NCBI GenBank assembly: GCA_000996355.1
Contig: LCAH01000001.1
Span: 18,482 to 82,481, forward strand
Direction of reading: 5' to 3'
Length of the DNA: 64,000 nt
DNA from: Candidatus Uhrbacteria bacterium GW2011_GWC2_41_11
GTDB taxonomy: Bacteria; Patescibacteriota; Patescibacteriia; UBA9934; GWF2-40-263
The translations under genes and the position numbers were made by a program. The notes beneath the pieces are model-generated. The model searched no databases and was not told where the DNA came from. It was given only the letters and a program-made list of their open reading frames with translations. Positions 1,117-41,533 of this stretch are shown in pieces (position 1 is the stretch's first letter; each line of letters starts with the position of its first letter).

Positions 1117-3627
1117 TTGACTGTTATGCCAAAAAATTATTCTTCAAAACAATCAGCCGCTCCAGCAGAACCATTAGAAAATAATGGAGCGGGAAAATTA
1201 GAGCTTCGGGATATTCGTGAAGAAATGTCAGATGCTTATCTTGATTATGCCATGTCTGTCATTGTGGCTCGTGCATTACCAGATGTTCGTGACGGACTGA
1301 AACCTGTTCATCGCCGTATTTTGTATTCGATGTGGCAAACAGGCTTGCGTTCTGGATCTCGTTTTAAAAAATGTGCAACGGTTGTTGGAGATGTTTTGGC
1401 AAAGTATCACCCACATGGAGATATTGCTGTCTATGACTCTCTTGCTCGTTTAGCCCAGGATTTTTCTCTTCGATATCCGTTAGTTCACGGACAAGGAAAC
1501 TTCGGTTCTCTTGATGGCGATCCGCCTGCCGCATATCGTTACACAGAATCAAAACTTCATGCGCTTGCCGAAGAGATGCTTACGGATATCGAACGTGATA
1601 CGGTCGATTTTCGTCCAAACTATGATGGAGCTCATGAGGAGCCAAAAGTTCTTCCAACCAAACTTCCGAATTTGATTGTAAACGGAACCCTTGGCATTGC
1701 CGTTGGAATGGCGACAAATATTCCTCCGCATAATTTGACGGAAGTCTGTGATGCATTGACGTTTTTGTTGGATCAACCAGAAGCGACCATTGATGATTTG
1801 ATGCAATTTGTACAAGGACCGGATTTTCCAACTGGAGGAATTATTTACAATATCAATGACATTCGACAGGTATATGCAACGGGAAGGGGAGGAATTTTAA
1901 CGCGTGCAAAAACCGAGATTGTCGAAGATGCAAAAGGAAACTTTCGTATTTTGGTTCACGAAATTCCCTACCAAGTGAACAAAGCAACTCTTTTGGAAAA
2001 AATTGCTCTATTGGTACGCGAAAAAAAGATTGAAGGTATCAAGGATTTGTGGGATGAATCAACAAGTGCTGGCGTGCGCATTGTGGTTGAATTAAAACGT
2101 GATGCTTTCCCGAAAAAAGTTTTGAATCGATTGTTTCAAGCTACACAACTTCAAGAAACATTTCACGTAAACATGCTGGCACTCATTGATGGAATTCAGC
2201 CCAGAATTTTGAACTTGAAAATGATTTTGGAAGAGTACTTGAAGCATCGAAAAGTGGTGGTTCGCCGTCGTACCCAATTTGATTTGAATCGCGCACGTGA
2301 ACGATCTCATATTTTGGAAGGATTGCGCATTGCGCTTCTTCACATCGATAAAATCATTGCCACGATTAAAAAATCCAAAGATCGTGACGAGGCTCGTACC
2401 GCTCTTATGAAAGGGTTCTCTCTTTCTGAACTTCAAGCGGTTGCCATTCTTGAAATACGCCTCCAACAGCTTGCGAATCTTGAACGGTTGAAGATTGAGC
2501 AGGAATATGAAGAAAAACAAGCTTTGATCAAAGAATTAGAATCTATTCTCAAATCTGAAACAAAGTTAAAAAGTCTTGTAAAGGATGAAATTCAGGATCT
2601 GAAGAAATCGTACGGAGATGAACGTCGGACAAAAGTTGTAAAACAGGGTGTCAAGGAATTTTCTATGGAAGATGTGATTCCAGATCTTCCAGCTATTGTA
2701 ATGATCACGCAGGGTGGATATATCAAACGTCTTTCACCAGACACATTTCGTCAGCAGGAACGTGGAGGAAAAGGAGTTCTTGGTCTTACCACAAAAGAAG
2801 AAGATGAAGTGGAACAACTTTTTTCAACCACAACACATCGTGATCTTTTGTTTTTTACTAGCCGCGGTCGTGTATTCCAGATGAAAGCATATGATATTCC
2901 GGAAACAAGCCGAACAGCAAAGGGAACAGCCCTGGTGAATTTTTTGAATTTGGCTCCGGGAGAATCTGTATCCGCAACCCTTTCTATGGCAGATGTCGAA
3001 GGATTCAAACATCTTCTTATGGTAACAAATAAAGGAACGATTAAGAAAACACCATTTACCGATTTTGAGAATATTCGTCAGAGTGGATTGATTGCGATCA
3101 AATTGAAAGAGGGAGATAATCTTGAATGGGTTCGTCCGACCACAGGAAATGATGATGTGATGTTGGTGACATCCGATGGTCAATCCATCCGTTTCCATGA
3201 AAAAGATGTTCGTCCGATGGGTCGGGTAGCATCAGGTGTGCGTGGAATCCGTTTAAAGGGAAATGATGCGGTTGTTGGTATGGATATTATTTCGCTGGAA
3301 ATGCAAAAGCGAAAAGACCCGCCACAACTCCTCGTTGTTACAGAACACGGATTTGGAAAACGCACCCCCGTTGATGAATACAAAGTTCAGGCTCGTGGAG
3401 GTTCTGGAATTAAAACCGCGAATACTCAAGGAAAAATTGGTAAAATTGTGGCTGGAAGAATGGTAAATGCAGATGACACACGTGATCTTATGGTTATTTC
3501 CATGGCCGGACAGGTTATTCGTACAGCATTATCATCCATTTCTGTTCTTGGACGTGCCACCCAAGGAGTTCGAATCATGCGATTCAAGGAATCAAACGAC
3601 AAAGTTACAAGTGTGGCGATTGTCTAG
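1117..3627 (+). CDS. gyrA: DNA gyrase subunit A
   Basis: 836 aa; canonical GyrA N-terminus '[26 protein letters not shown]' and a C-terminal beta-pinwheel repeat region. Confidence 0.95.
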
Positions 3628-20965: not shown

Positions 20966-21053
20966 GGTGGGGTGGCCGAGCGGTTTAAGGCACCGGTCTT
21001 GAAAACCGGCAGACTGAAAGGTCTCGCGAGTTCGAATCTCGCCCCCACCGCCA
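20966..21053 (+). tRNA. tRNA-Ser (anticodon TGA)
   Basis: Acceptor GGTGGGG/CCCCACC, D arm GCCGAGCGGTTTAAGGC, anticodon stem CCGGT/ACCGG with loop CTTGAAA, long variable arm, T arm GCGAGTTCGAATCTCGC, CCA encoded. Confidence 0.85.
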
Positions 21054-23110: not shown

Positions 23111-23290
23111 TTAGTAGATCTTTCGCGCAGACTTAGGTACCTCAAACCATTCGGGATGAACTTTGTAGATATCCCTTAGTTTCTGCATACTTTTATCAAG
23201 ATTTTCGAATTTGAGCCACGTTTTCCGTTCAAAGTTCCGGGCATCATCCCCGCCAATAGTTTTGAAAAGTGCGCCTAAAATATCCTTGTT
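23111..23290 (-). pseudogene. stop-to-stop ORF remnant without start codon (copy A of a paralogous pair)
   Basis: Minus-strand frame encodes ..ILGALFKTIGGDDARNFERKTWLKFENLDKSMQKLRDIYKVHPEWFEVPKSARKIY*. No ATG/GTG/TTG near the 5' end. Homologous to 23856-24020 with synonymous substitutions. Confidence 0.4.
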
Positions 23291-23355
23291 TTAAGCTATA
23301 GTCCAAAATGAAAAAGTTGTAAAATGTAAGAACCCTAAAGGGATTCGAATTTCAA

Positions 23356-23820
23356 ATGACCAAAGAATTTAAGTATAAATTTGATGCTGGTCCAGTTGCT
23401 TCACAGGAAGATCTCTTGAGCGAATGGGCGATAGGTAATTGCCGCAGAGCAGTGCAGCTCTATACTTTTAGAAAGAAAAACCTCTTTCTAAAACTAGAGC
23501 AAGTTTTGTGTCCCGCGGCATATAATGAAACAGGTGTTTTTGTTATCAATAAAGATCAAGAGTTTTCTTTTGACTCTCTTGTAGACGGCGATATTATTTA
23601 CGCAGAGAAGATCAGAAATAAAAACGGTAAAGAAGTCGACAAAAGCGAAAATACTTTCAATTCAGCGGATGAGTATATTATTTCACTTCACACCGCTTTA
23701 TATACGGGAGAGAAAGACCGCGAAATATGGCATGCAACCGCAGTAGAAGGATCGAGTTGTTTCTGGCCACTTGAGAAATTTCTTCATTTTTATAAACCGA
23801 TTGTGGCAAAACGAGTATAA
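23356..23820 (+). CDS. hypothetical protein, possible NlpC/P60-like Cys-His-His hydrolase
   Basis: 154 aa; order Cys (LCPAAY) .. 'GDIIY' .. 'SLHTALYTGE' .. 'IWHAT' resembles the NlpC/P60 catalytic layout. Weak. Confidence 0.3.
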   Translation: MTKEFKYKFDAGPVASQEDLLSEWAIGNCRRAVQLYTFRKKNLFLKLEQVLCPAAYNETGVFVINKDQEFSFDSLVDGDIIYAEKIRNKNGKEVDKSENTFNSADEYIISLHTALYTGEKDREIWHATAVEGSSCFWPLEKFLHFYKPIVAKRV

Positions 23821-24020: not shown

Positions 24021-24112
24021 TCAAAATTTCCTTATTTTGCGTTACATTTTAAAACCAAAAAGTTGTAAATTTGATACAAAGCAAAGAATTTTAAAAGTAC
24101 CTAACTGATTTT

Positions 24113-24745
24113 ATGGCGCTTCGATCCACGAGATTCGATGATTATTTTTTAAAAAATATAAATCCAGTTATTCGATTTTTGATTATTTCAGACACAGTTC
24201 TTCGAGGAGCCTCAGGATTACTTGGACCAATTTTTGCGTTTTTTATTCAGGGATTCGTAGAAGGAGGAGATGAAGCAGTTGCGGGCGTAGCGGCTGCTAT
24301 CTATCTTTTTACGAAAAGTATTTTTCAAATTCCTATCGCACATCTTATTGATCGAATCCGTGGAGAAAAAGACGATTTTTGGTTCATGTTTATCTTTACT
24401 CTTCTTATTGCGTTTATCCCATTATTTTATCTTGTTATCCATACACCTTTACAACTTTATGTGATTCAGTTTATTCTTGGAATTTTTACTGCGTTTACCT
24501 TTCCGACCTATATGGCAATTTTTACTCGCCACATAGATAAGACAAAAGAGGGGGTCGAATGGGGGATGTATTTTACTCTTACCGATTTGACAGGTGCCGC
24601 TTTTGCAGCCGTTGGAGGATATATTGCCATGAGTTCTGGTTTTCCAACCCTTATTATCGCCGTTGTTTTTCTTTCTGTCATCGGATCTCTTCTTCTTTTT
24701 CCCATTAAATCTTTTCTTCAGAAAAAGAATGATCTTCGTTTATAA
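24113..24745 (+). CDS. 6-TM membrane protein resembling one half of an MFS transporter (possible fragment)
   Basis: 210 aa with six predicted hydrophobic helices. Only half the length of a 12-TM MFS. Confidence 0.35.
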   Translation: MALRSTRFDDYFLKNINPVIRFLIISDTVLRGASGLLGPIFAFFIQGFVEGGDEAVAGVAAAIYLFTKSIFQIPIAHLIDRIRGEKDDFWFMFIFTLLIAFIPLFYLVIHTPLQLYVIQFILGIFTAFTFPTYMAIFTRHIDKTKEGVEWGMYFTLTDLTGAAFAAVGGYIAMSSGFPTLIIAVVFLSVIGSLLLFPIKSFLQKKNDLRL

Positions 24746-24775: not shown

Positions 24776-24802
24776 ATCCGTCTTGATTGGCGGATTTTTT
24801 GT
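24776..24802 (+). terminator. hairpin terminator (ATCCG/CGGAT plus T-run)
   Basis: 5 bp stem, 10 nt loop and TTTTTTGTTT directly after the 24113-24745 ORF. Confidence 0.4.
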
Positions 24803-24811
24803 TTAAAAATA

Positions 24812-24969
24812 TTGACATTTTAAATTATTGTGTTAGTCTTTTTTGTTGCTCATTTACAATAATGGTTTGTCAACAGCAAATGGTCAGAAAACGAGTTTTT
24901 TGTCGATTTACTGTTGACAAACCTTGCAAAGAACAAGGTTCCTGAAAGTCTATCCTTTCCTGTCGACAG
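24812..24969 (+). promoter_or_regulatory. control region: TTGACA -35-like box, 13-bp perfect inverted repeat GGTTTGTCAACAG/CTGTTGACAAACC, and palindrome CTGTCGACAG
   Basis: TTGACA at 24812-24817; inverted-repeat arms at 24864-24876 and 24911-24923, each containing TTGACA on one strand; palindrome at 24960-24969, about 85 nt before the first ATG of the downstream operon. Confidence 0.45.
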
Positions 24970-25052
24970 TTGTGAAGAGAAAGGAAAAATCTCGAAAAGA
25001 ACGGGATTTCAGGCCGAAAAGGTGTGGTGTAAAGAACACTACACACAAACAA

Positions 25053-26297
25053 ATGGAGGAGAAGATGAAAAAAGGAAAAGAGAATATTGCGATCAGCCAA
25101 CGGTTTTGCCGCTGGGCGGTTCGCGAAGATGGTCTCAAATTTGCTGGGAGTATCATCGCTATACTCATCATTGCTGGGTTCATCCTTGGCATTGATGTCG
25201 TAATCGCGATGTTCATGACGGACAAAGATCTTGTCCGGTTGATCGCCTGGTTCGGGATAATAGTTTTCGGATTTTTTGTCTTCACGTTTAGTCTGAGAAA
25301 CAGGTTTCATGAGGATGAACATCTGTGGGGCAGGGCTCTACAGCATCTTGGCGAAAAATTAGCTTATCAATTTTTCGTCAGACCGCACGAAGTCAGATTC
25401 GTCCATTTGTTCGGACTCAAGGAAACCAGGCGCCAGGCCGTGGAGGAAATTCGGAAATCCGATTATGGTTATTTTCTGGATTGGACGCGCAAGCATCTTG
25501 TCGTTCGTTCAATCAATGAGTTCCTTCTTTACCACGCGTTCATCCAATCTTCTATTCAAGAAGAAGGAATACGTCCGTCACCAGAGTTGCTTCGACTCAA
25601 GCGGCGGTTCTGGGCTGCTTGGAATATGGCTTCGGCTATGGGTATTCCGCTTCTCAAGGTGAAGGATTATGTCTTTTGTCGGAAAGCGGTTGATGTTCTT
25701 CCAACCTTTCAACCGTTTGATCGGTCGGACGAGATGTTGCGTTATTTCGATCGATTCTGCATACACGCGAATTGGGCCGTGCGAGATGAGAACACGGAAG
25801 TTGCACGAGCATGTCGGGATTTCCTCGGAACAGCCGGAGCGGATCTGGTCGCATACGTGGCGGACTCAGGGATTGATCTTCGAAAAACGAAGGTCGGTCA
25901 GGATGAAAGATCTGTTCCTTTTATCGAACGGATCGAAGCCGCGTTCGCATGTCGAGAAGCGGGAATGGATGAGTTGCATAAAATGTGTACGACGGCTCAA
26001 TGGAAGGCTGTCCTTGCCATGGAGCCACATGTTTTTCTCCCGATTCGGGAACAAGTCCTGTTTCATTCTGAAAGGGAAAAAGAAGGATATTTTCGACGGA
26101 TGGTGGACATCATGCATCCGACAGTTTTCTTCGATGTTTCACAAGCCGAACAAGGTCAGACGCCATGGCGGTATTCGGCTGGTGGACCGTATTGGTCTGA
26201 GATCCATAACGGTCGATGGATTGATGGAAAAGTTCGTCAGTCAGTCCTGGACGATGTTTTCGGCATTGGGTGGAATAAGGTCGGGAGGGTGTCATGA
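25053..26297 (+). CDS. hypothetical 2-TM membrane protein with large cytoplasmic domain (GC-rich)
   Basis: ATG at 25053 preceded by GGAGGAG. The track's TTG start at 24924 lies inside the inverted repeat and is unlikely. TM hairpin (FAGSIIAILIIAGFILGIDVVIAMF / LIAWFGIIVFGFFVFTFSL) then ~330 aa with no recognisable motif. Confidence 0.55.
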   Translation: MEEKMKKGKENIAISQRFCRWAVREDGLKFAGSIIAILIIAGFILGIDVVIAMFMTDKDLVRLIAWFGIIVFGFFVFTFSLRNRFHEDEHLWGRALQHLGEKLAYQFFVRPHEVRFVHLFGLKETRRQAVEEIRKSDYGYFLDWTRKHLVVRSINEFLLYHAFIQSSIQEEGIRPSPELLRLKRRFWAAWNMASAMGIPLLKVKDYVFCRKAVDVLPTFQPFDRSDEMLRYFDRFCIHANWAVRDENTEVARACRDFLGTAGADLVAYVADSGIDLRKTKVGQDERSVPFIERIEAAFACREAGMDELHKMCTTAQWKAVLAMEPHVFLPIREQVLFHSEREKEGYFRRMVDIMHPTVFFDVSQAEQGQTPWRYSAGGPYWSEIHNGRWIDGKVRQSVLDDVFGIGWNKVGRVS

Positions 26298-27379
26298 AGA
26301 AATTAATTGATGTCGTTACTGTTTTTCTTTCTCTTGCATCAGCTATTACTACCTGGGAAGGTTTGCGATATGCAAACCGCCTTGCGGATACGGAACTTCA
26401 GCGGTTCTGGATTCCGACAGCAGTGGCAATCTGTTTCTTCCTTTGTGCCTCTGCTTTCTGGCTGTCTTTGTTTCAGTGGTATCCGAAGGCAGACAAGGAA
26501 AAAAAATCCAAACTCCAGCTTATTGTTGTTGGGGGATGTGCGGTTATCTTTTTCGGTTCGACTTTGTGGTCGGTCATTGGCATCGGAGGCATCTCGGCCA
26601 TGACCTATCATATGAGCGGCACGATCAACGACGCAGATGCTATTCAAGGTTCTTTGTCCAGGCGCGTTGAACGAGAATGGAGTGTGGCAACTTCTCTGCA
26701 ATATCTCGAGCAGCAATTTCAAACCTTGTCTAATCTCGAGGAAAAGCAAGGAGCTTTCAGTGGATATGCCAACACGGGAGACGTGACTATTCAGTTAGAA
26801 TCTCTCTCAAAGGCGCTTGGGAATCTTCGCACGGTTCTTCAGAAAAATGCGGAAGAAAGTCGGACGGATCTGTCCGAATCCAAGGATCGCGTTGAAAAAC
26901 TTCGGCAGATTGTTGACGAGCCGGAAACACCCATTTCCAAAAGGATGAGCGATTTCAGCAAGGCACTGACCTCGTTGAACGAAGTATTTCAGCGAGTTCA
27001 GAGTCGACAAATGGCCAGTTTTGTCCGTGAGATCTCCGGAGACCTCGATACATTTGCTGCGGTTCAGGCACCTACGCAAAAAAATGATGTCGGAGAGGCG
27101 CAGCGTGCGGCCTTGGATCGGCTCAAGGCAACTGTGGTCGCGGCAAAGCAAACATTAAAGAAAATCTCGGAAGGGGCTGAAAGCTCTGAAGAGATAAAAC
27201 TCAAGAACTTGACTACAATTTCGCCCGGCATGGCAGTCATCAAATATGCCGGGGCGATTGTGGGAGAGATCGCAGCAGCTATTGCGCTGGATTTTTTTCC
27301 GGTCATCTTCTTTATCATTCTTGCCCTGACAGCGGATATTCGCAAAAAGGAACAGGAAGAGGAAGAAGGACTCGAATAA
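26294..27379 (+). CDS. hypothetical membrane protein: 3 N-terminal TM, ~200 aa coiled coil, C-terminal TM (GC-rich)
   Basis: Start overlaps the upstream stop (ATGA), suggesting translational coupling. Coiled-coil-like heptad region in the middle. Ends with a hydrophobic helix and an acidic tail. Confidence 0.55.
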   Translation: MKKLIDVVTVFLSLASAITTWEGLRYANRLADTELQRFWIPTAVAICFFLCASAFWLSLFQWYPKADKEKKSKLQLIVVGGCAVIFFGSTLWSVIGIGGISAMTYHMSGTINDADAIQGSLSRRVEREWSVATSLQYLEQQFQTLSNLEEKQGAFSGYANTGDVTIQLESLSKALGNLRTVLQKNAEESRTDLSESKDRVEKLRQIVDEPETPISKRMSDFSKALTSLNEVFQRVQSRQMASFVREISGDLDTFAAVQAPTQKNDVGEAQRAALDRLKATVVAAKQTLKKISEGAESSEEIKLKNLTTISPGMAVIKYAGAIVGEIAAAIALDFFPVIFFIILALTADIRKKEQEEEEGLE

Positions 27380-27385
27380 ATACTT

Positions 27386-27412
27386 CCGTCGGTTTTCACC
27401 GGCGGTTTTTTG
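27386..27412 (+). terminator. rho-independent terminator after the two-gene operon
   Basis: CCGTCGG..CCGGCGG stem (one G-U pair) followed by TTTTTTGTTTG. Confidence 0.5.
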
Positions 27413-27455: not shown

Positions 27456-27968
27456 ATGAAAGAATTATCTCAAACATCTTCGTCAGAAATCTTGCAGTAC
27501 GGACGGGCATTACTCACCTGGCAGGTTGATGAATATTTGAATCATGAACGTCCGCGGTCATGGTATGTGATTGGGGCAATTCTTTCTGTTGCCTTGATTA
27601 TCTATGCAATCGCAACGGCAAATTTTCTTTTTGCTGTTATTATTCTCATGGCAGGACTCATCACGCTTTTTTCAACCTTTCAATCCCCGGATCGCATTGA
27701 GGTCATTTTGACCACCACGGGAGTTGTTGTCGGTGATGCTTTTTACGAATTTAAATCAATGAAGAATTTTTCCATTATTTACGAACCCCCAGAAATAAAA
27801 GTTTTGTATTTGGATTTTTTGAAGCCGTGGATGCCTTTATTATCTGTTCCTTTGGAAGAAATGGATCCAAACCGCGTTCGTGAAATTCTCCTTTCTTTTT
27901 GTGAGGAAAACATCACTCGGCAAGAAGAATCCTTGACGGATCTTGTTCGAAGACTGTATAAATTGTAA
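27456..27968 (+). CDS. hypothetical 2-TM membrane protein
   Basis: 170 aa ORF with two hydrophobic helices. No motif. Confidence 0.45.
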   Translation: MKELSQTSSSEILQYGRALLTWQVDEYLNHERPRSWYVIGAILSVALIIYAIATANFLFAVIILMAGLITLFSTFQSPDRIEVILTTTGVVVGDAFYEFKSMKNFSIIYEPPEIKVLYLDFLKPWMPLLSVPLEEMDPNRVREILLSFCEENITRQEESLTDLVRRLYKL

Positions 27969-27975
27969 GCGTTTT

Positions 27976-28052
27976 GCGCCCGTAGCTCAGTTGGATAGAG
28001 CATCAGCTTGCGGAGCTGAGGGTCGCACGTTCAAGTCGTGCCGGGCGCACCA
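27976..28052 (+). tRNA. tRNA-Arg (anticodon GCG as read; unusual)
   Basis: Acceptor GCGCCCG/CGGGCGC, D arm GCTCAGTTGGATAGAGC, anticodon stem TCAGC/GCTGA with loop TTGCGGA, T arm GCACGTTCAAGTCGTGC, CCA encoded, followed by a terminator hairpin. Confidence 0.75.
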
Positions 28053-28997: not shown

Positions 28998-31052
28998 ATG
29001 TCTATCCATTTGGGTACGGATATTGGAGAACTTCGTGGTATGGGGGAAGCAGCGGTTCGAGATTGCCGACGTTTGGGAATTGTCTCTGTTTGTGACCTTC
29101 TTTGGCATGTTCCGTATCGGTATGAAGATTTTACGTTAACAAAACCGATTTCACGCCTTTCTCATGATGATCTTGTGACGTTGACCGGTCGGATTGTACA
29201 GATCTCAAGCCGTCCGAGCAAAAATCGACGAGTTCAGTTGACAGAGGCTTTATTTGAAAATGAAACAGGAGGACTCAAAGTGACCTGGTTTAATCAAACC
29301 TATTTGGAACGTCTCTTGCGTCCAGGAATGGAAGTGGCGCTTGCTGGGCGTATCGATCGTCGATTTGGTACAACAACTCTTTTGAATCCGGTTCATGAAC
29401 CACCTGGGGTGAATCTTCAGACAGGAAGAATCATTCCTGTTTACGCTTTATCCGGATCATTGACTCAACGTCGTTTACACACAGCGATTGAAGCATCAAA
29501 ACAGGCGTTTGAGGAACTGATCGATTGGTTACCTGAAAAAATAAAACAAGAAGAACTTTTTTTTGATCTTCCAATTGCACTCAAAACACTTCATTTTCCA
29601 GAATCACAGAATGAAATTTCTGCGGCACATGCACGTCTTGTTTTTGATGAACTTTTTTTACAGCAATTGCTTTTTGCAGAAGTACGCAAACAACGTGTGA
29701 CCTGTCAGGCTCAAATTATTTCTATAGACATTGAAGTATTAAAGACATTTGTTGCAGGACTTCCATTTCGTTTAACAAATGCTCAGCGCAAGGTATCTTG
29801 GAAAATAATGCAAGATCTTTCCAAAGAAGTTCCCATGAATCGTTTGCTTCAAGGAGATGTTGGATCTGGAAAAACTATTGTTGCCGCCTTGGCGGCGAAA
29901 GCTGTTTCTGTTGCCGGGTTTCAAACCGTGTATCTTGCACCAACTGAAATGCTTGCCATACAACAACATCGATCGTTTTGTCGATTTTTTCCGTCCGAAA
30001 AAATTGGGTTGTTGACGCGAACAAACTGTCTGATCGGAGAAAAAGAAGTTTCACATGAGGTTATGCTTAAAACACTTGCGTCCGGTCGCGTGCAAATGGT
30101 CATTGGAACACATGCGTTGCTGCAAAAAGATGTGCAATTTGCCAAGTTGTCTTTTGTAATTATTGATGAACAACATCGGTTTGGTGTGCGTCAACGTCAT
30201 GCCCTTTTTGAACGGGAAGGTGTTTCTGTTCCACATTTACTCTCCATGACAGCGACTCCCATTCCACGATCTTTGGCCTTAACGTTGTACGGAGATCTTG
30301 ATATTTCCGTTTTAGATGAATCTCCCGAAGGTCGTTTACCTATTACAACTCGTCTTATTGTTCCGGGAAAAGAAAAAGAAATGGAACGTGTTCTTGTTCA
30401 GGAATTAAATGCAGGATCCCAAGCCTATATTGTCTGTCCGTTCATTGATCCTTCAGACATAGAAGGAAGGGAATCTGTACAAGAGGTAGCTGAACGATTG
30501 AAAAAAGGATGTTTAAAAGATCATCGAATCGGTCTTTTGCACGGACGTCTTTCTTCTTCAGAACGAGATCAGGTTTTAGAAGCGTTTATCAAAGGCAGTC
30601 TTGACGTTGTGATTGCAACAACAGTTATAGAAGTTGGAATGGATGTTCCGAACGCAACAGTGATGGTCATTTTAGGAGCCGAATGTTTTGGTCTTGCGCA
30701 ATTGCATCAGCTGCGCGGACGTGTGGGACGTTCAGACAAATCATCGTATTGTTTTTTGTGTCCGAAGACGATTTCAGAAAAAATTCAGGAACGATTGCAA
30801 ACAGTTGTCTCCTGTCAAAACGGATTTGTTCTTGCTGAGCGTGATCTGGAGCTGCGTGGAAGTGGAAATTTTTTCGGGCAAGCACAATCTGGATTCCCGG
30901 ATTTTCGTTTTGCATCCATGTATGATGTTTTTGCAATGAAAAAAGCACGCGATTGGGTTCGAAAATTTCAGGAACAAGATCCTGAATATACACAATATCC
31001 ATCTGTACGCGAACGAATTTTAGAAGTATTTGAAGACGTTCATGGAGAGTGA
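28998..31052 (+). CDS. recG: ATP-dependent DNA helicase RecG
   Basis: Wedge/OB N-terminus, helicase motifs 'GDVGSGKT', 'DEQHRFGV', 'TATPIPR', 'QLHQLRGRVGR'. Confidence 0.9.
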   Translation: MSIHLGTDIGELRGMGEAAVRDCRRLGIVSVCDLLWHVPYRYEDFTLTKPISRLSHDDLVTLTGRIVQISSRPSKNRRVQLTEALFENETGGLKVTWFNQTYLERLLRPGMEVALAGRIDRRFGTTTLLNPVHEPPGVNLQTGRIIPVYALSGSLTQRRLHTAIEASKQAFEELIDWLPEKIKQEELFFDLPIALKTLHFPESQNEISAAHARLVFDELFLQQLLFAEVRKQRVTCQAQIISIDIEVLKTFVAGLPFRLTNAQRKVSWKIMQDLSKEVPMNRLLQGDVGSGKTIVAALAAKAVSVAGFQTVYLAPTEMLAIQQHRSFCRFFPSEKIGLLTRTNCLIGEKEVSHEVMLKTLASGRVQMVIGTHALLQKDVQFAKLSFVIIDEQHRFGVRQRHALFEREGVSVPHLLSMTATPIPRSLALTLYGDLDISVLDESPEGRLPITTRLIVPGKEKEMERVLVQELNAGSQAYIVCPFIDPSDIEGRESVQEVAERLKKGCLKDHRIGLLHGRLSSSERDQVLEAFIKGSLDVVIATTVIEVGMDVPNATVMVILGAECFGLAQLHQLRGRVGRSDKSSYCFLCPKTISEKIQERLQTVVSCQNGFVLAERDLELRGSGNFFGQAQSGFPDFRFASMYDVFAMKKARDWVRKFQEQDPEYTQYPSVRERILEVFEDVHGE

Positions 31053-40948: not shown

Positions 40949-41533
40949 ATGATGAAAAAATTGGAGACAGTGATTTTGGCTCAGGAGATGATGACCCACG
41001 TCGGAGAGTTGGGCGAGGGAATGAAAGACACGTTGTATGTCAACGTGAAGATTCCTCTTTCGGCCTACCACGAACCTCCGCCGCCATTTACGCCTCCTGG
41101 CCCTTTTCTCATCGATGAGTCTCAACCCACTTGGGATGGAACGAATCTTGAGGATTTGTCTGCAGAGGATCAGGCGGCCTGGGCCGCACGGCTTCGGTGG
41201 ATCAATCAGTATGTCCTAGGGTTCGTCCCGAATCCTCTGGATCCGGAGCAGCTTGAGGATGCCCCGATCGATTGCATCGGTGGGACATTCAATAGCGGAG
41301 ACATCGCCTCCTATCCGTTGTGTGCGGTGTTTTTCCGTGGAGAGGATGTTATTCTCCAGTTTTCCTCGTACGTCTCTGACGGAAGAGGATGGCGATTTGC
41401 CCTCTCTCTTGCCTCGCGGATTGTGAAAGCGAGGAGGACTGGAATTCAGGTCGGCGTCTGTTATTCGGACGAAGACTTTTATTCCGAGAACTGGAGGGGG
41501 CCTTTTTACACTCCTTCTTGGATGAAGGAGTGA
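40949..41533 (+). CDS. hypothetical protein (GC-rich insert)
   Basis: 194 aa with a Pro-rich stretch (EPPPPFTPPGP). Local GC is markedly higher than the genome background. Confidence 0.45.
   Translation: MMKKLETVILAQEMMTHVGELGEGMKDTLYVNVKIPLSAYHEPPPPFTPPGPFLIDESQPTWDGTNLEDLSAEDQAAWAARLRWINQYVLGFVPNPLDPEQLEDAPIDCIGGTFNSGDIASYPLCAVFFRGEDVILQFSSYVSDGRGWRFALSLASRIVKARRTGIQVGVCYSDEDFYSENWRGPFYTPSWMKE

What the first reader, a model, noticed from the sequence alone, without database searches (positions are those of the whole stretch)
25053..27379. Compositionally foreign two-gene membrane operon of unknown function (candidate novel system)
Two translationally coupled genes (ATGA overlap) have clearly higher GC (~50%) than the flanking genome (~38-40%), which points to horizontal acquisition. 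The first gene product is a 2-TM hairpin plus a ~330-aa cytoplasmic domain with no recognisable motif. The second product has 3 N-terminal TMs, a ~200-aa coiled coil and a C-terminal TM with an acidic tail. This architecture recurs in phage-defence/abortive-infection membrane effectors and in stress-sensing membrane complexes. The operon sits in the tRNA-flanked accessory region, behind a palindromic operator and a terminator on each side. No homology to named families could be assigned by eye.
Basis: partly seen in the sequence, partly recalled or inferred. Interest (0 to 1): 0.7.

Follow-up and report, generated by a model that had tools for sequence, protein, structure and literature searches.

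The report
Rare two-gene membrane module, function unknown
Two overlapping genes in a groundwater ultra-small (CPR, Uhrbacteria) bacterium encode a pair of membrane proteins that travel together in only four known lineages; one belongs to an unstudied protein family also found in alphaproteobacteria, the other has almost no relatives, and nothing points to phage defence.

Summary
Two translationally coupled ORFs, P1 (25053/25065-26297) and P2 (26294-27379), have GC 0.48 and GC3 0.49, against window-gene means of 0.41 and 0.32. They lie between two terminator-like hairpins and behind a unique 60-bp palindrome. No Pfam, NCBIfam, PADLOC, PHROGs or PDB match is significant.

The pair is real and conserved as a unit. 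An exhaustive HMMER search of 1.84 billion proteins found only three true P1 relatives. Each has a P2 homologue directly downstream, and the neighbours are housekeeping genes that differ in every lineage. In one other lineage the pair is again much more GC-rich than its flank, which supports lateral transfer.

P2 is not an orphan. It is a full-length remote homologue (hhalign 99.5%, E 3e-22) of a hypothetical-protein family on alphaproteobacterial chromids. UniRef labels some of these proteins DUF4407, but the Pfam models did not reproduce that label here. In alphaproteobacteria the partner gene is a downstream membrane-anchored ClpP-like protein (COG3904), not P1.

The defence reading has no support. 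My best guess is a heteromeric envelope-sensing or scaffolding membrane complex with a swapped partner. The function remains unknown.

The parts
24776..24795 (+). Terminator-like hairpin plus T-run that ends the upstream half-size MFS gene. It marks the left boundary of the transcription unit.
   Evidence: 7-bp stem, 4 GC pairs, TTTTTGTTTA tail.
24864..24923 (.). 60-bp near-perfect palindrome in the 5' leader/promoter region. The arms contain TGTCAACAG / CTGTTGACA, so a TTGACA faces each way. Its role is unknown: possibly an operator, an RNA hairpin, or a relic of insertion.
   Evidence: unique in the window; 0 matches in 100 shuffles. (the leader 24796-25070 folds at -75 kcal/mol, z = -3.9). 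No equivalent upstream of the homologous pairs.
25053..26297 (+). P1. Basic N-terminal stretch, a TM hairpin (about aa 30-55 and 62-82), then an all-alpha domain of about 330 aa predicted to be cytoplasmic. The likely true start is ATG 25065, behind GGAGG at 25055-25059. It belongs to an orphan family.
26284..26290 (+). Shine-Dalgarno-like GGGAGGG for P2, inside the 3' end of P1. Together with the ATGA stop/start overlap at 26294-26297 it indicates translational coupling.
26294..27379 (+). P2. TM1-TM3 (about aa 4-22, 37-63, 73-103), a helical bundle of about 210 aa predicted to be extracytoplasmic (aa about 104-316) with a conserved Gly-rich tip loop (E149...G153...G162-x-V164), TM4 (about 319-345, containing LDFFP), and an acidic cytoplasmic tail. 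It is a remote member of the alphaproteobacterial family that UniRef names DUF4407.
27386..27405 (+). Intrinsic-terminator-like hairpin (8-bp stem, 6 GC pairs, TTTTTTGTTT tail) 7 nt after the P2 stop codon. It marks the right boundary of the unit.

Best explanation
The locus is a laterally acquired, self-contained two-gene operon encoding two membrane proteins that most likely assemble into one inner-membrane complex.

Shown:
- The genes are translationally coupled.
- The pair is kept together and in the same order in all four lineages that have either gene.
- P2 is a full-length remote homologue of a family of alphaproteobacterial 4-TM/helical-bundle proteins. That family is always paired with a different partner, a membrane-anchored ClpP-fold (COG3904) protein encoded downstream.
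- P1 is unrelated to that partner.

Inferred:
- P2 has an N-in topology. TM1-TM3 are followed by an up-down helical bundle projecting out of the cytoplasmic membrane, with a conserved glycine-rich loop at its distal tip, then TM4 and an acidic cytoplasmic tail.
- P1 has both ends in the cytoplasm.
- P1 and P2 meet through their TM helices and P2's short cytoplasmic segments.

Proposed mechanism (speculative): P2 is the conserved core, a membrane scaffold or sensor that reads or contacts something in the cell envelope through its ectodomain. Its TM region carries invariant polar residues (Ser16, Thr20, Ser89, His106 at the interface, Asp333-x-x-Pro in TM4). The partner is the exchangeable output module: an extracytoplasmic peptidase in alphaproteobacteria and the novel cytoplasmic P1 domain in CPR bacteria.

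The most likely role is envelope or membrane homeostasis or stress handling, not phage defence.
For: Coupling: ATGA overlap plus an SD-like sequence. The junctions in the other lineages are TGATG, a 1-nt gap and a 15-nt gap.

The pair is conserved:
- Exhaustive HMMER search of 1.84e9 representative proteins gives only P0003, P0006 and P0007 as true P1 relatives.
- Each has a P2 homologue immediately downstream: L006 183..1181 + 1197..2282; L004 3253..4395 + 4395..; L007 143..1243 + 1245..2348.
- P2 identities are 38-48%.
- Neighbours differ in every lineage and are housekeeping genes: ClpB, ValS, PfkB/FBA, MFS/RecG. The two genes therefore form the whole unit.

Lateral origin:
- GC3 is 0.49 against 0.32 in the window.
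- In L006, the pair has GC3 0.62 and the adjacent ClpB 0.19.
- There is no anomaly in L004 or L007.

P2 family:
- tblastn to Paracoccus albus p1, 25% identity over 94% of the query; pairwise E 3e-14.
- P0009 hits 127 alphaproteobacterial records at full length, best E 4e-18.
- hhalign of A3 against A6: 99.5%, E 3e-22, 342 columns.

Partner swap: a COG3904/ClpP-like gene lies downstream in Paracoccus, Phaeobacter, Sinorhizobium and Ensifer. P1 is unrelated to it.

Topology: loop 2 has 5-6 K/R in 13 residues in all CPR members, and the P1 N-terminus has 8 K/R.

Invariant residues across both clades.

Weak contextual hints of stress handling: ClpB next to the L006 pair; STAS-domain and 'ATP-binding protein' genes, which resemble a partner-switching cluster, next to the Phaeobacter copy; genes annotated as nutrient deprivation-induced, ferritin-like and BrkB near the Ensifer copy.
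Against: - No experiment and no characterised homologue exists. The function is inferred from architecture only.
- The P1 model is poor (pLDDT 50) and matches nothing, so the 'output module' role is conjecture.
- The physical P1-P2 interaction was not modelled; no multimer tool was available.
- Topology rests on hydropathy and the positive-inside rule. TM1 is only moderately hydrophobic.
- In the L006 lineage the P1 homologue lacks the TM hairpin: there is an in-frame stop upstream, and all four assemblies break there. Membrane anchoring of P1 may therefore be dispensable, or that copy may be decaying.
- With four lineages, no covariation or selection test is possible. All copies of the window's population are nearly identical.
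- The stress-related neighbours are circumstantial and not conserved.
Confidence: 0.4

Rival explanations
1. Anti-phage abortive-infection module. P2 or P1 would be a membrane-disrupting effector triggered by infection, acquired horizontally like other defence genes.
For: - Foreign composition in two lineages and a patchy, rare distribution.
- A two-gene membrane architecture with no housekeeping assignment.
- A very weak PADLOC PycTM hit over TM helices only (E 0.023).
- A weak MLKL_N hit in 2 of 4 members (best E 0.021).
Against: - No significant PADLOC match for any of the seven family members tested.
- Neighbours are housekeeping genes, not defence genes, in all four CPR lineages.
- No sensor or enzymatic domain typical of defence systems (nuclease, TIR, SIR2, ATPase) is present.
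- The P2 family was found in 139 alphaproteobacterial plasmid/chromid records, including 69 Sinorhizobium and 58 Phaeobacter, with a similar record position in many Phaeobacter records. That is unlike a variable defence island.
- No integrase or mobile-element gene is adjacent.
Confidence: 0.12
2. Cell-surface or host-interaction factor of an episymbiotic CPR bacterium. The P2 ectodomain would contact a host cell or extracellular matrix, and P1 would anchor or regulate it from inside.
For: - P2 carries a predicted outward-facing 210-aa helical bundle with a conserved distal loop.
- CPR bacteria are thought to live attached to hosts (established knowledge).
- The distribution within CPR is rare and lineage-specific.
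Against: - The same P2 family occurs in free-living or plant-associated alphaproteobacteria behind an outer membrane. There the ectodomain would be periplasmic and could not touch another cell.
- No adhesin-type repeats are present.
- No link to pilus or secretion genes is seen in any neighbourhood.
Confidence: 0.1
3. Ion-conducting or transport complex. The 4-TM bundle of P2 would form a channel or proton path through its conserved intramembrane Asp (TM4), Ser/Thr (TM1, TM3) and interface His, gated by the ectodomain and by P1.
For: - The TM segments are the best-conserved parts of P2 across CPR and alphaproteobacteria. Invariant polar residues are S16, T20, S89 and H106, and (L/I)D(F/L)xP is present in TM4 of all seven complete sequences.
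- Weak CorA, LMBR1 and TauE-type hits occur in individual members.
Against: - All those hits are far below threshold and inconsistent between members.
- Four TMs per subunit would need oligomerisation, which was not tested.
Confidence: 0.12
4. Non-functional passenger DNA. The pair would be a decaying remnant of an integrated element, with no current role.
For: - Foreign GC.
- A half-size MFS gene lies immediately upstream.
- The P1 homologue in L006 has lost its TM hairpin.
Against: - Both ORFs are intact.
- The pair has SD-like sequences, an overlap junction and a terminator.
- The gene order, the full length of P2 (361, 361 and 367 aa in the three complete copies) and the motifs persist at 38-48% identity in four lineages. 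That is not expected without purifying selection.
Confidence: 0.04

Closest known systems
Alphaproteobacterial hypothetical 4-TM/helical-bundle proteins that UniRef names 'DUF4407 domain-containing' (e.g. S. meliloti pSymB Q92WJ4; Phaeobacter inhibens WP_014889262; Paracoccus albus WP_271073541), together with their COG3904 partner
   Same: - Full-length homology to P2: hhalign 99.5%, E 3e-22, 342 columns; tblastn E down to 4e-18.
- The same order of TM1-3, helical domain and TM4.
- Shared motifs: S..xT..G in TM1, G..A...H..T after TM3, F..L...E...G........G.V at the tip, and (L/I)D(F/L)xP in TM4.
- They also sit in a tight two-gene unit.
   Different: - Only 21-25% identity.
- The alphaproteobacterial proteins are 70-90 aa longer, with an N-terminal extension and a Pro/Ala-rich C-tail in place of the acidic tail.
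- Their partner is downstream and is a TM-anchored ClpP-fold protein with conserved Ser and His. It is unrelated to P1. P1 is upstream and all-alpha.
- The family itself is uncharacterised; the literature holds only table mentions.
Pfam DUF4407 (PF14362) proper
   Same: From memory, this is a bacterial membrane protein family with N-terminal TMs and a long helical region. UniRef attaches the name to P2's alphaproteobacterial relatives.
   Different: The Pfam-A copy used here returns no DUF4407 hit, even at E <= 1-10, for P2, its three CPR homologues or four alphaproteobacterial relatives. Membership is therefore not demonstrated.
Stomatin/flotillin (SPFH) - NfeD operons
   Same: This is an analogy only. 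A two-gene operon pairs an oligomeric membrane scaffold rich in coiled-coil helix with a membrane-bound ClpP-class peptidase. That pairing resembles the alphaproteobacterial P2-like/COG3904 pair, which also gives a weak NfeD1b_N hit.
   Different: P2 has no SPFH/Band_7 domain. P2 is polytopic with its helical domain between TM3 and TM4. The CPR pair has no peptidase at all.
Four-helix-bundle sensor domains of chemoreceptors and sensor kinases
Tetraspanin / MS4A (CD20) type 4-TM proteins
   Different: These are eukaryotic proteins with unrelated sequences (2-9% identity in these matches). P2 has no Cys-rich EC2 domain. The resemblance is topological only.

Membership tests
Pfam DUF4407 (PF14362) | Match to the family HMM at or above the gathering score | tested here: not met
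   No DUF4407 line at E <= 1 or E <= 10 for P2 and its three CPR homologues. None either for the alphaproteobacterial relatives P0030, P0046, P0079 and P0076.
Pfam DUF4407 (PF14362) | Homology to proteins that a public source names DUF4407 | tested here: met
   UniRef names Q92WJ4 (P0030) and the Phaeobacter members (P0046, P0047, P0050) DUF4407. P2 family against that family: hhalign 99.5%, E 3e-22; tblastn E 4e-18.
Alphaproteobacterial P2-like + COG3904 operon | P2-like 4-TM/helical-bundle protein homologous over its full length | tested here: met
Alphaproteobacterial P2-like + COG3904 operon | A TM-anchored ClpP-fold (COG3904) partner encoded immediately downstream | tested here: not met
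   The gene downstream in the window (27456-27968) is a 2-TM protein that UniRef names DUF5673, with no Clp hit. L006, L007 and L004 likewise lack such a partner. P1 is unrelated to COG3904.
Known anti-phage defence systems (PADLOC-DB v2) | Significant match of at least one component to a defence-system HMM | tested here: not met
   Only PycTM at E 0.023 over TM helices of P2. Nothing for P1, for the three other P1-family proteins and two other P2-family proteins tested, or for the Paracoccus P2-like protein and its partner.
Known anti-phage defence systems (PADLOC-DB v2) | Location among other defence or mobile-element genes | tested here: not met
   Neighbours are LD-carboxypeptidase, MFS, RecG, ClpB, ValS and PfkB/FBA. 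No integrase was seen.
SPFH (stomatin/flotillin) - NfeD | Band_7/SPFH domain in the scaffold protein | tested here: not met
   No Band_7 hit in any member.
PspA/IM30 | PspA_IM30 HMM match above threshold; a soluble or peripheral coiled-coil protein | tested here: not met
   One of four members gives E 0.0089, and the others give nothing. P2 is polytopic.
Chemoreceptor-type four-helix-bundle sensors | 4HB sensor domain plus a cytoplasmic signalling domain (HAMP/MCPsignal/HisKA) | tested here: not met
Phage or viral proteins (PHROGs, INPHARED, IMG/VR, BFVD) | A sequence or structural relative in viral collections | tested here: not met
   Only the alphaproteobacterial type appears, on two IMG/VR contigs; this was not followed up.

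The most novel reading that the evidence does not exclude
P2-type proteins would be the conserved core of a previously unrecognised, modular class of bacterial transmembrane devices. An outward-facing helical sensor sits on a 4-TM bundle with an intramembrane Asp/His/Ser network, and couples to interchangeable partners. In CPR bacteria the partner is P1, a novel cytoplasmic domain with no detectable relatives. In alphaproteobacteria it is an extracytoplasmic ClpP-fold peptidase. The CPR version would then be a new signalling or effector system that moved horizontally among ultra-small groundwater bacteria.
Probability: 0.15. Interest if true: 0.6.

Novelty: new variant of a known kind. Interest (0 to 1): 0.4.

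Why it matters
If real, the module gives an entry point to two unstudied protein families.

P2 links an orphan CPR gene to genes present in cultivable, genetically tractable bacteria (Sinorhizobium meliloti, Phaeobacter inhibens), where function can be tested directly.

The partner swap (P1 versus a ClpP-like peptidase) suggests a modular membrane device whose logic could be worked out by comparison.

The locus is also a clean example of lateral gene flow into reduced CPR genomes. In two lineages the same two-gene unit has GC3 0.17-0.43 above its host genes.

On present evidence, though, it is one of many uncharacterised membrane operons, and there is no sign of a defence role.

Tried and rejected
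- Curated libraries. Pfam, NCBIfam, PADLOC and PHROGs scans of both proteins and of all family members gave only sub-threshold, inconsistent hits such as CrgA, CorA, PycTM, MLKL_N, PspA and GspM. I rejected these as noise from TM and coiled-coil composition.
- PDB sequence and profile searches found nothing.
- Word-indexed homologue searches returned only self-hits. The profile version recovered only P0007.
- Three hits from the exhaustive search were rejected as short-motif or repeat artefacts. P0004 (2830 aa), P0005 (5692 aa) and P0008 (612 aa) have best stretches within query residues 161-236, repeated 4-22 times. In the one sequence inspected (P0008) the repeat is an 'EFxAAWN'-type motif.
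- GTDB species representatives hold no relative of P1 or P2. Viral contigs hold none for the CPR types. Phage genomes hold none. The plasmid collection holds none for P1.
- I looked for an empty site or population variants of the locus. All contigs are 99.7-100% identical and all carry the pair.
- I looked for att-like direct repeats or mobile-element genes between the tRNAs and found none convincing.
- I looked for a conserved upstream palindrome in the homologous loci and found none.
- P1 against the alphaproteobacterial COG3904 partner: unrelated.
- Pseudomonas plasmid hits to P2 were spurious (lysozyme, E about 2).
- Literature on DUF4407, COG3904 and the Phaeobacter and S. meliloti locus tags yielded only table mentions or nothing.
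Full report
**1. The observation**

The window has mean GC of about 0.41, with most of its long ORFs on the + strand. Sources name the matching proteins 'Candidatus Uhrbacteria bacterium', a CPR/Patescibacteria lineage.

At the stated coordinates there are two long + strand ORFs.
- P1 runs 24924..26297. Its first ATG is at 25053, giving 414 aa. An SD-like GGAGG at 25055-25059 sits 5 nt before the ATG at 25065, and most gene callers chose that 410-aa start.
- P2 runs 26294..27379 (361 aa). It begins within an ATGA overlap and 4 nt after GGGAGGG.

The composition is anomalous.
- The pair has GC 0.48 and GC3 0.49.
- The 61 window ORFs average GC 0.413 (sd 0.028) and GC3 0.324 (sd 0.071), so the pair lies at z about 2.3-2.5.
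- A 200-nt profile shows that the GC-rich block coincides with the two coding sequences.

The flanking features are also present.
- Terminator-like hairpins flank the unit at 24776-24795 and 27386-27405.
- A 60-bp palindrome lies upstream at 24864-24923. It is unique in the window and absent from shuffles.
- tRNA-Ser (20966-21053) and tRNA-Arg (27976-28052) bracket the wider region.

**2. Are these real genes, and is the pair a unit?**

No curated library gives a significant hit to either protein. This covers Pfam, NCBIfam, PADLOC and PHROGs and the PDB sequences. The word-indexed search of 5.8 billion proteins returned only the proteins themselves.

The exhaustive HMMER search of 1.84 billion cluster representatives with P1 found seven hits. 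Four are real:
- P0001, which is P1 itself.
- P0003 (44% identity, E 6.5e-75).
- P0006 (28% identity, E 3e-7). It shares the N-terminal 'C-x-W-A-V-x-E-x-G-L' motif and the TM hairpin.
- P0007 (31% identity, E 2e-6).

The other three hits are 612-5692 aa long, with 4-22 matched stretches each and best stretches within query residues 161-236. I regard them as artefacts.

I fetched the contigs that encode the three true relatives. Each has a clear P2 homologue immediately downstream on the same strand.
- L006: 183..1181, then 1197..2282 (361 aa).
- L004/L005: 3253..4395, then 4395.. (TGATG overlap).
- L007: 143..1243, then 1245..2348 (367 aa).
P2 identities to the window protein are 48%, 42% and 38%.

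Nothing else is shared between the four neighbourhoods.
- L006 continues with ClpB.
- L007 continues with ValS.
- L004 is preceded by PfkB and a class II aldolase.
- The window pair lies between a half-size MFS gene and a small 2-TM protein, followed by tRNA-Arg and RecG.

The two genes are therefore the whole conserved unit.

**3. Lateral origin**

The anomaly recurs in L006. There the pair has GC 0.52-0.53 and GC3 0.62, next to a ClpB gene with GC 0.37 and GC3 0.19. In L004 and L007 the pair matches its flanks.

Flanking genes of L006 are named Uhrbacteria in one MAG, and the same DNA is named 'Bdellovibrio sp.' in another. The latter is probably a binning error.

The pair is absent from one genome for each of 185,579 GTDB species. 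It is also absent from viral contigs and phage genomes.

A rare, patchy, compositionally foreign two-gene unit in different genomic positions is best explained by horizontal transfer. No integrase, att-like repeat or empty site could be found.

**4. P2 is not an orphan**

A tblastn search of P2 against the plasmid collection gave one weak but full-length hit, to a 450-aa hypothetical protein on Paracoccus albus plasmid p1 (24.8% identity over 94% of the query). The pairwise BLASTP E-value is 3e-14, with matching motifs in TM1, after TM3, at the centre of the helical domain and in TM4.

That protein has 139 relatives on alphaproteobacterial plasmids and chromids: 69 Sinorhizobium, 58 Phaeobacter, plus Ensifer, Rhodovulum, Rhizobium and Shinella.

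The homology is solid.
- The L006 P2 homologue hits these relatives directly and at full length, with E down to 4e-18.
- A profile-profile comparison of the CPR and alphaproteobacterial alignments gives 99.5% probability, E 3e-22, over 342 columns.

I could not reproduce that assignment. The Pfam-A copy here gives no DUF4407 hit for P2, its CPR homologues or four alphaproteobacterial members. RefSeq annotates them simply as hypothetical proteins. In the literature DUF4407 appears only in gene tables.

**5. The partner is swapped**

In Paracoccus, Phaeobacter, Sinorhizobium and Ensifer the P2-like gene is followed by a 243-273-aa protein, adjacent or overlapping. That protein has an N-terminal TM and a ClpP-fold domain.
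- CLP_protease scores E 2e-5 in Phaeobacter.
- It is named COG3904 or 'Clp protease' by sources.
- Ser and His are invariant, in a C-x-S-A-C motif and a G-V-H-Q motif.

No P1-like gene is present there. P1 is unrelated to COG3904 (hhalign probability 0.1%). Conversely, the CPR loci have no ClpP-like gene. P2 is thus a conserved core with lineage-specific partners.

**6. Anatomy and likely mechanism**

P2. The AF2 model (3-sequence alignment) has mean pLDDT 69, and about 80-90 over residues 100-295. Its helices are 2-30, 34-61, 68-152, 164-207, 214-236/241-255, 265-295 and 319-360. TM3 therefore continues as a long helix that leaves the membrane. Three further helical segments run back, out and back again to TM4, forming an up-down bundle.

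The TM2-TM3 loop carries 5-6 Lys/Arg in 13 residues in every CPR member. By the positive-inside rule the loop is cytoplasmic, which places the bundle outside and the acidic tail inside (inference).

Residues invariant across CPR and alphaproteobacterial sequences cluster in three places:
- The membrane region: S16, T20 and G23 in TM1; I85 and S89 in TM3; G99, A102, H106 and T110 at the outer interface; (L/I)D(F/L)xP in TM4.
- The distal tip of the bundle: F142, L145, E149, G153, G162, V164, L168.
- Other positions: L30 (TM1-TM2 loop), W56 (TM2), and R204, F221 and L251 in the helical bundle.

P1. It has a basic N-terminus, a TM hairpin and an all-alpha domain. That domain's conserved core is roughly residues 90-215, and no obvious catalytic residue set is conserved. 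Its model is unreliable (pLDDT 50) and matches nothing.

My working model is a heteromeric inner-membrane complex. P2 senses or scaffolds at the envelope side, and its partner provides the output. The role would be in envelope or membrane homeostasis.
- Shown: the coupling, the co-conservation, the homology and the partner swap.
- Inferred: the topology, the physical interaction and the functional role.

**7. Rivals**

The defence / abortive-infection reading is not supported.
- There is no PADLOC hit for any member.
- There are no defence or mobile neighbours.
- There are no phage relatives.
- In alphaproteobacteria the family was found in 139 chromid/plasmid records, with a similar record position in many Phaeobacter records.

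It cannot be excluded, because the proteins are membrane-embedded, rare and laterally acquired.

A host-contact role, an ion-conducting role and a decaying-passenger role are each possible but less supported (see the rival explanations).

**8. Novelty and verdict**

P1 defines a tiny orphan family: four lineages among 1.84 billion representatives. P2 is a divergent CPR branch of an uncharacterised family.

The P1-P2 unit has not been described in the literature searched or the libraries scanned here. It is best filed as a new variant (new partner, new phylum) of an already catalogued but unstudied kind of membrane-protein operon.

Interest is moderate. The most useful outcome is the bridge to S. 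meliloti and Phaeobacter, where the family can be studied experimentally.

Noticed in passing
window 23277-23323 and 24023-24069: A 47-nt direct repeat (77% identical, ending AAAAAGTTGTAAA) lies about 30-45 nt upstream of two neighbouring genes: the ORFan 23356..23820 and the half-size MFS 24113..24745. It may be a shared promoter or regulatory element.
   Followed up: no
window 40949-41533 (+): This is the strongest compositional outlier gene of the window (GC 0.525, GC3 0.59; z about 4). It encodes a 194-aa ORFan with no Pfam hit, just after the miaA-like IPP transferase gene. It looks like another laterally acquired gene.
   Followed up: partly
window 24113-24745 (+): The gene directly upstream of the pair encodes only the N-terminal half of an MFS transporter (210 aa; MFS_1 profile positions 12-180 of 347). 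No C-terminal half was found downstream of the pair. It may be a truncation at the insertion boundary or a genuine half-size transporter.
   Followed up: no
L006/L008-L011, first ~200 nt: Four independent assemblies of the Crystal Geyser population all end within about 50 nt of each other, 150-200 nt upstream of the P1 homologue. That homologue lacks the TM hairpin and is preceded by an in-frame stop. This suggests a repeat, a strain-variable junction or an insertion at this point.
   Followed up: partly
L006 / L010 versus cluster names: The same contiguous DNA (the pair plus ClpB plus two hypothetical genes) is deposited partly in a 'Bdellovibrio sp. CG_4_9_14_3_um_filter_39_7' MAG and partly in a 'Candidatus Uhrbacteria' MAG. 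This is a probable binning error on short contigs.
   Followed up: no
L021 9246-9977; L022 6565-7098; L023 5238-6023; L024 5250-6029: Alphaproteobacterial P2-like genes are consistently followed by a TM-anchored ClpP-fold (COG3904) gene with invariant Ser and His. This is an uncharacterised scaffold-plus-peptidase operon reminiscent of stomatin/NfeD. In Phaeobacter it sits next to STAS-domain and 'ATP-binding protein' genes that resemble a partner-switching cluster, and next to a lytic transglycosylase.
   Followed up: partly
L001 13946-16032 versus window 28998-31052: RecG is one 684-aa ORF in the window and in most assemblies, but is called as two genes (427 + 268 aa) in GCA_003523645.1. This is probably a frameshift or assembly error in that record.
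   Followed up: no
P1 residues 161-236 (window about 25533-25760): Three repeat proteins, two of them giants (P0004 2830 aa, P0005 5692 aa, P0008 612 aa), have best stretches within this region, with 4-22 matched stretches each. In the one sequence inspected (P0008) the repeat is an 'EFxAAWN'-type motif. I judged this a motif coincidence, but it was not examined further.
   Followed up: partly
L026 5001-6308 and L027 5001-5336 (IMG/VR contigs): Two contigs in the viral collection encode alphaproteobacterial-type P2 relatives (61-68% identity to the Paracoccus protein), both at contig ends. They may be host flank of predicted proviruses.
   Followed up: no
window 24796-25070: The 275-nt leader between the upstream terminator and the P1 start folds much more stably than shuffled controls (-75 kcal/mol, z = -3.9). 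The 60-nt palindrome hairpin dominates the fold, and no Rfam family matches.
   Followed up: partly
window 27456-27968 (+): The small 2-TM protein just downstream of the pair is named 'DUF5673 domain-containing' by UniRef. It got no Pfam hit at E <= 0.01 here, which is the same discrepancy between a source's name and the local Pfam scan as seen for DUF4407.
   Followed up: no
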